A DNA stretch of 16,973 nucleotides from a virus (IMGVR_UViG_2529293240_000008:1-16973), one strand, 5' to 3'; shown: positions 1,609 through 2,499, numbered from the stretch's first letter. Numbers and translations: made by a program. Notes: generated by a model from the sequence alone, not told the origin.

Positions 1609-1662
1609 TATATCATTTGCTATATATTGTCAATATGCTATTGTTGTAAAGCAAATGATATA
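1609..1662 (+). promoter_or_regulatory. Putative operator/promoter of the TA operon: 12-bp perfect inverted repeat flanking an AT-rich core
   Basis: TATATCATTTGC (1609-1620) and GCAAATGATATA (1651-1662) are exact reverse complements, ending 10 bp before the antitoxin start codon. Confidence 0.4.
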
Positions 1663-1672
1663 CGGAGGCTTT

Positions 1673-1939
1673 ATGAAATCAGGTGTTCAGCTCAATCTCA
1701 GAGCAAGAGAATCACAGCGGATACTCATTGATGCTGCTGCAGAAATTCTTCATAAGTCGCGTACAGATTTCATTCTGGAAATGGCCTGTAAAGCTGCTGA
1801 AGATGTTATTCTCGACCGGCGGGTGTTTAATTTTAATGACAGGCAATATGAAGAGTTCATTGAAATGCTTGATGCTCCGGTTGCAGATGATCCTGCCATC
1901 GAAAAATTGCTGGCAAGGAAACCTCAATGGGATGTGTAA
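1673..1939 (+). CDS. DUF1778 (TacA-like, RHH) antitoxin of a GNAT toxin-antitoxin pair
   Basis: ATG at 1673 with GGAGG 5 bp upstream; 88 aa ([26 protein letters not shown]...); stop overlaps the start of the next gene (ATGGGATGTGTAA). Confidence 0.8.
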
Positions 1940-2412
1940 CTGCACCAGAACCTTTATCCTCATTTCATCAGGTCGCTGAATTTGTCAGCGGTGAAGCTGT
2001 ACTTGATGACTGGTTAAAGCAGAAGGGGCTAAAAAATCAGGCAATCGGAGCCACCCGGACTTTTGTTGTATGCAGAAAAGGTACGCAACAAATAGTCGGT
2101 TTTTACTCACTGGCCACTGGTAGTGTCAATCATACAGAAGCTACAGGTAACCTTCGGCGCAATATGCCAGACCCCATTCCTGTAATTATACTTGCACGCC
2201 TGGCTGTAGATGTGTCATTTCGAGGAAAAGGGCTTGGCGCGGATTTACTTCATGATGCAGTTCGTCGTTGTTACAGGGTTGCCGAAAATATCGGTGTGCG
2301 TGCAATTATGGTTCATGCGCTTACGGAAAACGCAAAACAGTTTTATATTCATCATGGTTTTAAGCCATCAAAAACTCAGGTGCAAACATTGTTTCTTAAA
2401 CTCCCTCAATAG
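1927..2412 (+). CDS. GNAT-family acetyltransferase toxin (TacT/ItaT-like)
   Basis: 161 aa; the motif [16 protein letters not shown] fits the acetyl-CoA binding Q/RxxGxG/A pattern; 13-bp overlap with the upstream antitoxin gene. Confidence 0.8.
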
Positions 2413-2466
2413 GGAGTAATGCCGATCAGTTAAGGATCAGTTGACCGATCCAGTGGCTGTGTAAGA

Positions 2467-2499
2467 ATCCGGAAACGCTCACTCGTTTCCGGATTTTTC
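2467..2499 (+). terminator. Rho-independent terminator downstream of the TA operon
   Basis: ATCCGGAAACG-CTCACT-CGTTTCCGGAT perfect 11-bp stem followed by TTTTT. Confidence 0.65.

What the first reader, a model, noticed from the sequence alone, without database searches (positions are those of the whole stretch)
1609..2499. TacAT-type acetyltransferase toxin-antitoxin operon with a perfect 12-bp inverted-repeat operator
The DUF1778 antitoxin and GNAT toxin overlap by 13 bp and are preceded by exact inverted repeats (TATATCATTTGC / GCAAATGATATA) and followed by a strong terminator. That is a compact, apparently intact autoregulated module sitting between two mobile-element remnants. GNAT toxins of this type acetylate aminoacyl-tRNAs (established for TacT/ItaT/AtaT); which tRNA this one targets cannot be told from sequence.
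Basis: partly seen in the sequence, partly recalled or inferred. Interest (0 to 1): 0.35.

Follow-up and report, generated by a model that had tools for sequence, protein, structure and literature searches.

The report
Known pINV TacAT-like pair (orf86-orf85)
This is the already described second acetyltransferase toxin-antitoxin gene pair (orf86-orf85) of the Shigella/enteroinvasive E. coli virulence plasmid; it is a close relative of Salmonella TacAT and looks intact, but the toxin of the laboratory strain was reported not to stop growth, so the finding is ordinary apart from one untested allele difference.

Summary
An 88-aa DUF1778 antitoxin gene (1673-1939) overlaps a 161-aa GNAT gene (1927-2412) by 13 bp. 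An exact inverted repeat precedes them and a strong hairpin with a T-run follows.

The pair is 88-89% identical to Salmonella TacA/TacT. The DNA is 99.8-100% identical to Shigella/EIEC pINV plasmids. It is not GmvAT, the functional GNAT system of pINV. It is the other pair, orf86-orf85 (0112-0111): published orf86 primers match the window exactly.

The literature reports that overexpressed Orf85 does not inhibit growth, and that Orf86 is secreted by the type III apparatus. The tested strain (M90T) carries G34E in the toxin. The window carries the ancestral Gly34, as do EIEC, S. boydii and S. dysenteriae plasmids. It also keeps every residue known to be essential in TacT, and the gene evolves under purifying selection (dN/dS about 0.06).

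The "12-bp inverted-repeat operator" is really two separate 18-bp palindromic boxes (1608-1625, 1646-1663). They bracket the promoter and are conserved in about 25 orthologous loci of other genera.

Family placement predicts Gly-tRNA(Gly) as the target. Verdict: already known, low interest. Whether the window allele is toxic remains untested.

The parts
1608..1625 (.). Operator box OP1, GTATATCATTTGCTATAT. It is an 18-bp pseudo-palindrome (half-site GTATAnC, 4-bp centre) and contains the -35 hexamer.
   Evidence: The motif GTAWANCNNNTGNTATAY matches here on both strands, and only here and at OP2 in the window (0.06 expected). The same box lies at the same distance from the antitoxin start in about 25 orthologous loci whose flanks are unrelated. 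The orthologous OP1 of a K. pneumoniae plasmid tacAT is bound by TacAT in EMSA (bioRxiv 10.64898/2026.09.23.753711).
1617..1622 (+). Predicted -35 hexamer TTGCTA, inside OP1.
   Evidence: Read from the sequence. It is invariant in the orthologue alignment because it is part of the box. It was not called by the 9-of-12 scanner. This is an inference.
1636..1644 (+). Predicted extended -10 element, TGcTATTGT, 16 bp after the -35.
   Evidence: The stretch TGTGCTATGCT / TGCTATTCT is conserved between the two boxes in orthologues (consensus line). The transcription start is not mapped. This is an inference.
1646..1663 (.). Operator box OP2, GTAAAGCAAATGATATAC. It starts 2 bp after the -10, is expected to cover the transcription start, and ends 10 nt before the ATG.
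   Evidence: OP1 plus OP2 span -65 to -10 relative to the ATG. That lies inside the -81..-6 probe of Salmonella tacAT, which binds TacAT at two sites (PMC5449658).
1664..1668 (+). Shine-Dalgarno sequence GGAGG for the 1673 start.
   Evidence: Read from the sequence.
1673..1939 (+). Antitoxin gene orf86 (0112): an 88-aa DUF1778/TacA-family ribbon-helix-helix protein. Databases start it at ATG 1655.
   Evidence: Pfam PF08681, E 3.8e-25. It is 78/88 identical to Salmonella TacA (PDB 7ZG6, E 3.9e-47). The orf86 primers of PMC5658099 match 1655-1681 and 1915-1936 exactly. The start at 1673 is supported by the SD, by alignment with orthologues, and by the corrected TacA start in Salmonella (PMC5449658).
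1927..2412 (+). GNAT toxin-type gene orf85 (0111), 161 aa, Gly34 allele (WP_000501969.1).
   Evidence: It matches Salmonella TacT with E about 3e-93 (PDB 5FVJ, 7F36, 7AK8). There are 20 differences to the Y140F crystal sequence, hence 19 to wild-type TacT. K33, K36, R77, R78, R91, A93, Y140 and K146 are all present (roles from PMC4942678). The exact protein is seen on at least 998 contigs.
2463..2498 (+). Intrinsic terminator: stem AATCCGGAAACG / CGTTTCCGGATT, loop CTCACT, then a T-run.
   Evidence: -29.7 kcal/mol, z -7.4 for 2455-2510. Homology with E. coli plasmid p1RM8082 runs from window 1571 to 2507, so the hairpin belongs to the shared cassette.

Best explanation
Window 1608-2498 is the orf86-orf85 (0112-0111) locus of the Shigella/EIEC invasion plasmid pINV. 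It is a TacAT1-type type II toxin-antitoxin operon and is distinct from GmvAT. A sigma-70 promoter (-35 TTGCTA inside OP1; extended -10 TGcTATTGT) is bracketed by two 18-bp palindromic TacA boxes 38 bp apart. By analogy with KacAT and AtaRT, each box is bound by the two ribbon-helix-helix dimers of one toxin-antitoxin2-antitoxin2-toxin hexamer. OP1 would then occlude the -35 and OP2 the transcription start, giving autorepression. The antitoxin and the GNAT are translationally coupled through a 13-bp overlap, and a hairpin terminator closes the unit. If active, the GNAT acetylates the amino group of Gly-tRNA(Gly) and stalls translation, and Orf86 neutralises it. Shown here or in cited papers: the identity of the locus, the gene architecture, the conservation of the two boxes, the retention of all known essential TacT residues, purifying selection on both genes, expression of Orf86 and its type III secretion, and lack of toxicity of the M90T Orf85 allele. 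Inferred: promoter position, operator occupancy, Gly specificity, and whether the window's Gly34 allele is toxic.
For: Identity of the locus. The DNA of 1500-2600 is 99.7-100% identical to the best-matching pINV plasmids. pWR501 carries two GNAT/DUF1778 pairs. The one at 44.4 kb lies 7.4 kb from virF between two IS91-family copies and encodes WP_000405245.1. That is GmvT according to PMC8923223 and Supplementary Table 4 of PMC9177977. The other, at 83.3-84.0 kb, is the window pair. Orf86 primers match exactly. The GC content of 1655-1939 is 42.5% and that of gmvA is 44.9%, the values printed for orf86 and orf48.

Family. The 13-bp overlap is the same as in Salmonella tacAT.

Operators. EMSA on orthologous boxes is reported, two binding sites in Salmonella, and one hexamer per palindrome in KacAT.

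Selection. Against E. coli plasmid orthologues the toxin shows 27 synonymous and 6-7 non-synonymous differences (dN/dS 0.06-0.07), and the antitoxin 0.11-0.18.

Target. TacT, TacT2, GmvT and two other clade D toxins are almost exclusively Gly-specific in vivo.
Against: [quoted passage not shown] The module may therefore not work as a toxin-antitoxin system at all. The primary paper could not be read. The toxin has Arg at position 113, where 114 of 120 close relatives have Leu. The K. pneumoniae preprint reports activation, not repression, through OP1. No transcription start, footprint or enzymatic datum exists for this locus. Both boxes are slightly less symmetric here (6 of 9 pairs) than in orthologues (7-8 of 9).
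Confidence: 0.85

Rival explanations
1. The locus is a degenerating, functionally dead toxin-antitoxin remnant. The GNAT has lost its toxicity. Only the antitoxin still matters, as a DNA-binding protein or as a type III secretion substrate.
For: Non-toxicity of Orf85 and viability of the orf86 mutant are reported. There is a lineage-specific L113R (or L113C) at a position that is Leu in 114 of 120 close relatives. S. flexneri alleles add G34E and then G22S at conserved glycines, with no synonymous change in the coding region between the M90T copy and the window. Some relatives in the lineage have K146T or truncations. One S. flexneri plasmid has IS1 inserted at the toxin stop codon.
Against: dN/dS is 0.06-0.07 for the toxin across the R113/C113 lineage, which is strong purifying selection on the supposedly dead gene. 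The ORF is intact on at least 998 contigs. All residues shown to be essential in TacT are kept. Position 113 is variable (L, N, K, H, R) in more distant GNAT toxins and is His in the functional GmvT. The tested allele is not the window allele.
Confidence: 0.3
2. This is the first reader's reading: the two 12-bp arms are the two halves of a single inverted-repeat operator, bound as one unit.
For: The arms are exact inverted copies.
Against: The 12-bp arms are 30 bp apart, and the centres of the two boxes are 38 bp apart. Each arm sits inside a box that is itself palindromic and matches the motif on both strands. Orthologues conserve two separate palindromes with an unconserved 20-bp spacer that holds the -10. 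In KacAT and AtaRT one hexamer covers one palindrome of about 27 bp. In K. pneumoniae tacAT the two boxes were probed and mutated separately. A bridged, looped complex of two hexamers is not excluded.
Confidence: 0.1
3. The pair is GmvAT, the functional acetyltransferase toxin-antitoxin system that stabilises pINV at 21 C.
For: It lies on the same plasmid and belongs to the same protein families. This was my own first assumption.
Against: GmvT (WP_000405245.1) is only 47% identical to the window toxin. It lies at 44.4 kb of pWR501, 7.4 kb from virF; the window pair lies at 83.3-84.0 kb. The orf86 primers, not the orf48 primers, match the window.
Confidence: 0.01

Closest known systems
pWR100/pWR501 orf86-orf85 (0112-0111) of Shigella flexneri M90T pINV
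   Same: It is the same locus. Over window 1500-2600 there are 2 nucleotide differences, the antitoxin is identical, and the flanking ISSfl3, group II intron and IS600 are the same. Published orf86 primers match exactly.
   Different: The M90T toxin has Glu34 where the window has Gly34. Downstream of IS600 the window continues into a lambdoid prophage region instead of pINV sequence.
Salmonella Typhimurium TacAT (TacA1/TacT1; PDB 5FVJ, 7AK8, 7F36, 7ZG6)
   Same: The toxin is 88% identical (19 differences to wild type) and the antitoxin 78/88 identical. Both have the 13-bp overlap, the upstream mis-annotated start, and all tested essential residues (K36, R77, R78, K146, A93, Y140). Both bind or are predicted to bind at two sites within about 80 bp upstream.
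   Different: TacA Lys44, the acetylation switch reversed by CobB, is Asp44 here; most orthologues have Asn or Asp, so Lys44 is the Salmonella peculiarity. The toxin differs at L113R, R153Q, K54Q and R3C. This copy is plasmid-borne and flanked by IS elements. Toxicity was not demonstrated.
GmvAT (orf48-orf47, 0063-0062) of pINV
   Same: It has the same two protein families, lies on the same plasmid, and belongs to clade D of GNAT toxins with Gly-tRNA(Gly) specificity.
   Different: Toxin identity is only 47%. Its upstream sequence does not show the GTATAnC-N4-GnTATAC box as such. GmvAT is functional in post-segregational killing at 21 C and depends on Lon. No such activity is reported for orf86-85.
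Plasmid tacAT of Klebsiella pneumoniae CRK3022 (preprint)
   Same: It has two 18-bp pseudo-palindromes, OP1 and OP2, of the same consensus upstream of tacA. In the printed mutant sequences the outer TA dinucleotides are changed: GT(gg)AGCATTTGCT(cc)AC and GT(gg)ATCAATTGCT(cc)AC. TacAT binds OP1 in EMSA.
   Different: There TacAT is reported to activate the promoter, and OxyR is involved. This is a preprint and was not tested for the pINV locus.
KacAT (K. pneumoniae) and AtaRT (E. coli O157:H7)
   Same: Both are GNAT plus RHH antitoxin systems in which a T-A2-A2-T hexamer binds one palindrome spanning the transcription start, with conditional cooperativity.
   Different: They are distant relatives (E 1e-10 to 1e-12 against the toxin). 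They belong to clade A, which has broad tRNA specificity.

Membership tests
GNAT/DUF1778 (TacAT-type) type II toxin-antitoxin systems | A promoter-proximal DUF1778 ribbon-helix-helix antitoxin gene | tested here: met
   Pfam PF08681 TacA1, E 3.8e-25, 88 bits against a cut-off of 21. It is 78/88 identical to TacA, PDB 7ZG6.
GNAT/DUF1778 (TacAT-type) type II toxin-antitoxin systems | A downstream GNAT with the acetyl-CoA motif (Q/R-x-x-G-x-G/A), Ala93 and the catalytic Tyr140 | tested here: met
   R99-G-K-G-L-G104, A93 and Y140 are present. Y140 is invariant in 120 close and 57 distant relatives. The roles of A93 and Y140 come from PMC4942678.
GNAT/DUF1778 (TacAT-type) type II toxin-antitoxin systems | Basic tRNA-binding residues shown to be needed for TacT toxicity (K36, R77, R78, K146; K33 plus R91) | tested here: met
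   All are present in the window allele. The M90T allele inserts Glu34 between K33 and K36.
GNAT/DUF1778 (TacAT-type) type II toxin-antitoxin systems | An overlapping two-gene operon with palindromic operator(s) at its own promoter | tested here: met
   There is a 13-bp overlap and two conserved 18-bp palindromes around the predicted promoter. Protein binding was not tested here.
GNAT/DUF1778 (TacAT-type) type II toxin-antitoxin systems | The toxin arrests growth and the cognate antitoxin rescues it | not testable with these tools
   The published test of the M90T allele (Glu34) was negative (PMC5658099 citing McVicker and Tang 2016). I found no test of the Gly34 allele.
GNAT/DUF1778 (TacAT-type) type II toxin-antitoxin systems | Acetylation of the alpha-amino group of aminoacyl-tRNA | not testable with these tools
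   This is inferred only from 88% identity to TacT and from the Gly specificity of all tested clade D toxins.
GmvAT of pINV | Sequence and map position of gmvA/gmvT (WP_000405245.1; 7.4 kb from virF between two IS1294 copies) | tested here: not met
   Toxin identity is 47% and the position in pWR501 is different.

The most novel reading that the evidence does not exclude
The Gly34 allele in this window, shared by EIEC, S. boydii and S. dysenteriae pINV, may be an active Gly-tRNA(Gly)-acetylating toxin. On that reading the 'inactive' label in the literature reflects a G34E change found in S. flexneri plasmids (followed by G22S in the commonest allele). Most pINV lineages would then carry a fourth working toxin-antitoxin system that S. 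flexneri has disabled. The system's antitoxin is also exported by the type III apparatus.
Probability: 0.3. Interest if true: 0.35.

Novelty: already known. Interest (0 to 1): 0.15.

Why it matters
As a finding it matters little. The locus is annotated, named and already tested, and its family is structurally and biochemically well understood. Two by-products may be useful to people who work on pINV maintenance. First, the only toxicity test I could trace was done on an allele (M90T, Glu34) that differs from the widespread Gly34 allele. The difference lies at a position that is Gly, Ala or Ser in nearly all relatives and sits between two tRNA-groove lysines. Strong purifying selection also argues that the gene is not dead. 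Second, the annotated start codon (1655) lies inside operator OP2 and is probably six codons too early. This bears on how the type III secretion experiments, which used that start, should be read.

Tried and rejected
1. I first assumed the pair was GmvAT (after). The GmvT primers and sequence in Supplementary Table 4 of PMC9177977 (MEINVTAP...) did not match the window toxin. Mapping both pairs on pWR501 then settled the question.

2. I considered L113R as the inactivating mutation. Position 113 is Leu in 114 of 120 close relatives. It is variable in distant GNAT toxins, however, and is His in the active GmvT, so the call is not safe.

3. I considered loss of the TacA Lys44 acetylation site (Asp44 here) as a notable difference. 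Orthologues mostly have Asn or Asp, so Lys44 is the Salmonella oddity.

4. I looked for co-variation of antitoxin K12R with the G-to-T change in the outer half-sites. It is not consistent: locus L017 has R12 with unchanged boxes.

5. The consensus scanner found no promoter in 1600-1672 at its 9-of-12 threshold and did not call the terminator. The promoter is therefore proposed from comparative conservation, and the terminator from folding.

6. McVicker and Tang 2016 and Grabe et al. 2024 could not be read. AF348706 and AL391753 are not held as records.

7. No structure prediction was run, because solved structures at 88% identity exist.

Full report
**Observation.**
Reading 1400-2700 and listing ORFs confirms the gene pair. 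An 88-codon ORF starts at ATG 1673, is preceded by GGAGG (1664-1668), and ends at 1939. A 161-codon ORF runs from 1927 to 2412, so the two overlap by 13 bp. The first ORF matches Pfam PF08681 (TacA1/DUF1778; E 3.8e-25). The second matches three GNAT families.

The repeat is perfect over 14 bp and 16 of 17 over 1608-1624 / 1647-1663. By chance 0.09 matches are expected; 2 are found. The terminator arms are 2463-2477 and 2484-2498, followed by a T-run. Folded with its flanks (2455-2510), the region gives -29.7 kcal/mol, z -7.4.

The flanks are mobile-element debris. Upstream are the end of ISSfl3 and a group II intron reduced to its D1-D4 (669-782) and domain V/VI (1460-1535) RNA parts, with fragments of the reverse-transcriptase ORF. 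Downstream are an ISSfl1 remnant and IS600.

**What it is.**
Against solved structures, the toxin matches Salmonella TacT at E about 3e-93. It has 20 differences to the Y140F crystal sequence, so 19 to the wild type. The antitoxin matches TacA (7ZG6) at 78 of 88 residues. More distant hits are 9ILR and 7F37 (E about 1e-45), 7AK7 (1e-41), 6G96 (1e-17), AtaT (1e-12) and KacT (1e-10). This places the toxin firmly in the TacT1 subfamily.

The DNA of 1500-2600 is 99.7-100% identical to the best-matching invasion plasmids of S. flexneri, S. boydii, S. dysenteriae and EIEC.

I first took this to be GmvAT, the acetyltransferase system known to stabilise pINV at 21 C in a Lon-dependent way. That was wrong. 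The GmvT sequence used by Bikmetov et al. (WP_000405245.1 from AF348706) is a different protein. pWR501 carries two GNAT/DUF1778 pairs.

- The first pair, at 44.4-45.2 kb, lies 7.4 kb from virF between two IS91-family copies. That is how Martyn et al. describe gmvAT.
- The second pair, at 83.3-84.0 kb, is the window pair.

Pinaud et al. [quoted passage not shown] Their orf86 primers match window 1655-1681 and 1915-1936 exactly. The GC contents they print (42.5% for orf86, 44.9% for orf48) are the values I compute for the two antitoxin genes.

The same paper found native Orf86 by mass spectrometry in ipaD supernatants. It showed that Orf86 is a type III secretion substrate translocated into host cells, and that an orf86 mutant is viable. 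The locus is therefore known, named and partly characterised. RefSeq already labels the antitoxin "TacA family".

**The operator.**
I aligned the 80 nt upstream of the antitoxin start from 24 related loci with the window: 22 from other genera and two E. coli plasmids. The alignment shows two strongly conserved 18-bp boxes in otherwise unrelated DNA. OP1 has the consensus GTATAGCgtTTGCTATAC. OP2 has the consensus GTAaAgCAAaTGCTATAC. They are normally 38 bp apart, start to start. Between them lies a conserved TGTGCTATGCT stretch.

In the window the boxes are GTATATCATTTGCTATAT (1608-1625) and GTAAAGCAAATGATATAC (1646-1663). A degenerate motif for the box matches only these two places in the 17-kb window (0.06 expected). 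It matches each of them on both strands, which shows that each box is itself a palindrome. The motif recurs at the same offsets in the orthologous loci.

It is a by-product of two boxes sharing one palindromic consensus, GTATAnC-N4-GnTATAC.

This agrees with the experimental record.
- In Salmonella, TacAT binds the -81 to -6 fragment at two sites, and K12A abolishes binding. Here OP1 plus OP2 span -65 to -10.
- In a K. pneumoniae plasmid tacAT, two boxes of the same sequence type were probed separately, and TacAT bound OP1.
- In KacAT and AtaRT, one T-A2-A2-T hexamer covers one palindrome.

From the alignment I place the -35 (TTGCTA, 1617-1622) inside OP1. The extended -10 (TGcTATTGT, 1636-1644) ends 2 bp before OP2. 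This is the classical repression geometry. It remains an inference, because the simple scanner did not reach its threshold there and no transcription start is known. The window's boxes are slightly less symmetric (6 of 9 pairs) than the orthologues' (7-8 of 9). The deviating position (6/13 of the box) is the variable one in the family.

**Is the toxin alive?**
All residues shown to matter in TacT are present: A93 and Y140; K36, R77, R78 and K146; K33 plus R91 (PMC4942678). The lineage does have Arg at position 113, where 114 of 120 close relatives have Leu; the E. coli plasmid relatives have Cys there. Position 113 is variable in more distant GNAT toxins (L, N, K, H, R) and is His in the demonstrably toxic GmvT. 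I therefore do not count L113R as an inactivating change.

The allele difference is more telling. The M90T/pWR501 toxin, the strain in which toxicity was tested, differs from the window by one substitution, G34E. The commonest S. flexneri allele adds G22S. Position 34 is Gly, Ala or Ser in almost all relatives examined (116 of 120 close, all 57 distant) and lies between K33 and K36 of the tRNA groove. The window allele (WP_000501969.1) is the one carried by EIEC VL7S7, S. dysenteriae E670/74 and S. boydii ATCC 49812 and is seen on at least 998 contigs.

Against the E. coli plasmid orthologues (about 94% DNA identity), the toxin gene shows 27 synonymous and only 6-7 non-synonymous differences (dN/dS 0.06-0.07). 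The antitoxin gives 0.11-0.18. A gene that had lost all function would not be held like this.

So the sequence evidence says "maintained by selection". The one reported experiment says "not toxic", and that experiment used a different allele. I leave the activity of the window allele open. I give about 0.3 to a truly dead toxin and about 0.3 to a fully active one. The remainder is weak or condition-dependent activity.

**Target.**
[quoted passage not shown] These are TacT, TacT2, GmvT and two distant ones, in addition to TacT3 and AtaT2. At 88% identity to TacT, Gly-tRNA(Gly) is the reasonable prediction. It is still only an inference.

**Comparison and novelty.**
The locus works like, and by sequence belongs to, the TacAT family. 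The functional criterion of the family, a toxic toxin, is unmet in the only published test and is untestable here. It is not GmvAT. Nothing about the architecture departs from the family. The finding is already known, and I score its interest low.

The residual value lies in three points.
- The allele point above.
- The two-operator reading.
- The observation that the annotated start codon (1655) lies inside OP2, six codons upstream of the start supported by the SD, by the orthologue alignment, and by the corrected Salmonella TacA start.

Noticed in passing
window 1655-1675: The database start of the antitoxin (ATG 1655, 94 aa) lies inside operator OP2 and has no Shine-Dalgarno sequence. ATG 1673 has GGAGG and aligns with the start of all orthologues and with the experimentally corrected TacA start. 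The Orf86-bla fusions used to show type III secretion were built from the 1655 ATG behind a synthetic SD (primer orf86_F). They may therefore carry six extra N-terminal residues (MIYGGF) in the region where secretion signals lie.
   Followed up: partly
window 2026-2028 (codon 34 of the toxin); L001 and L089: There is an allelic series in pINV. Gly34 occurs in the window, EIEC, S. boydii and S. dysenteriae. G34E occurs in S. flexneri M90T, and G22S+G34E in the commonest S. flexneri allele. One S. flexneri plasmid (89-141) has IS1 inserted at the toxin stop codon, which changes Q161R and removes the terminator from the operon.
   Followed up: yes
window 669-1535: A degraded group II intron. Rfam finds D1-D4 (669-782) and domain V/VI (1460-1535), but only fragments of the reverse-transcriptase ORF remain (e.g. 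1151-1294). It ends about 35 nt before the block shared with E. coli plasmid copies of the module (from about 1571).
   Followed up: partly
window 4300-14700: Beyond IS600 the window is not pINV-like. It is a lambdoid prophage early region, 90.5% identical to Escherichia phage PhiR49_2 and 87% to Stx2a phages. It holds a CI-type repressor (5089-5784, minus strand), Rha/Ash-type ORFs, and DnaC-like and DnaB genes. The source is therefore a mosaic joined at an IS element, or a chromosome, and not a standard pINV.
   Followed up: partly
window 8293-8481 and 8949-9137: There are two tandem copies of an isrK sRNA plus C4 antisense RNA unit, with near-identical Rfam scores. They lie within a duplicated Ash/Rha antirepressor-like segment (ORFs 7324-8898 and 8895-9755).
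   Followed up: no
window 14279-14589: A prophage tRNA cluster: Met(CAT), Arg(TCT), Thr(TGT), Gly(TCC). A phage-borne tRNA-Gly lies 12 kb from a gene predicted to acetylate Gly-tRNA(Gly). This is probably coincidence.
   Followed up: no
literature: PMC9177977, main text and Supplementary Table 4: The paper calls GmvT 'Shigella sonnei GmvT'. Its accession (AF348706) is S. flexneri pWR501, and S. sonnei pINV is reported to lack gmvAT (PMC8923223). In the supplementary table as held, the TacT(Bcn) row carries the GmvT protein sequence and accession.
   Followed up: no
L082 45203-45312 (upstream of gmvA in pWR501): The gmvAT upstream region has its own pair of related but different repeats (GTATAGCGTTCTGTTAC..., GCATAGCAAATTGTTACC). 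This suggests separate operator specificities for the two GNAT systems on one plasmid.
   Followed up: no
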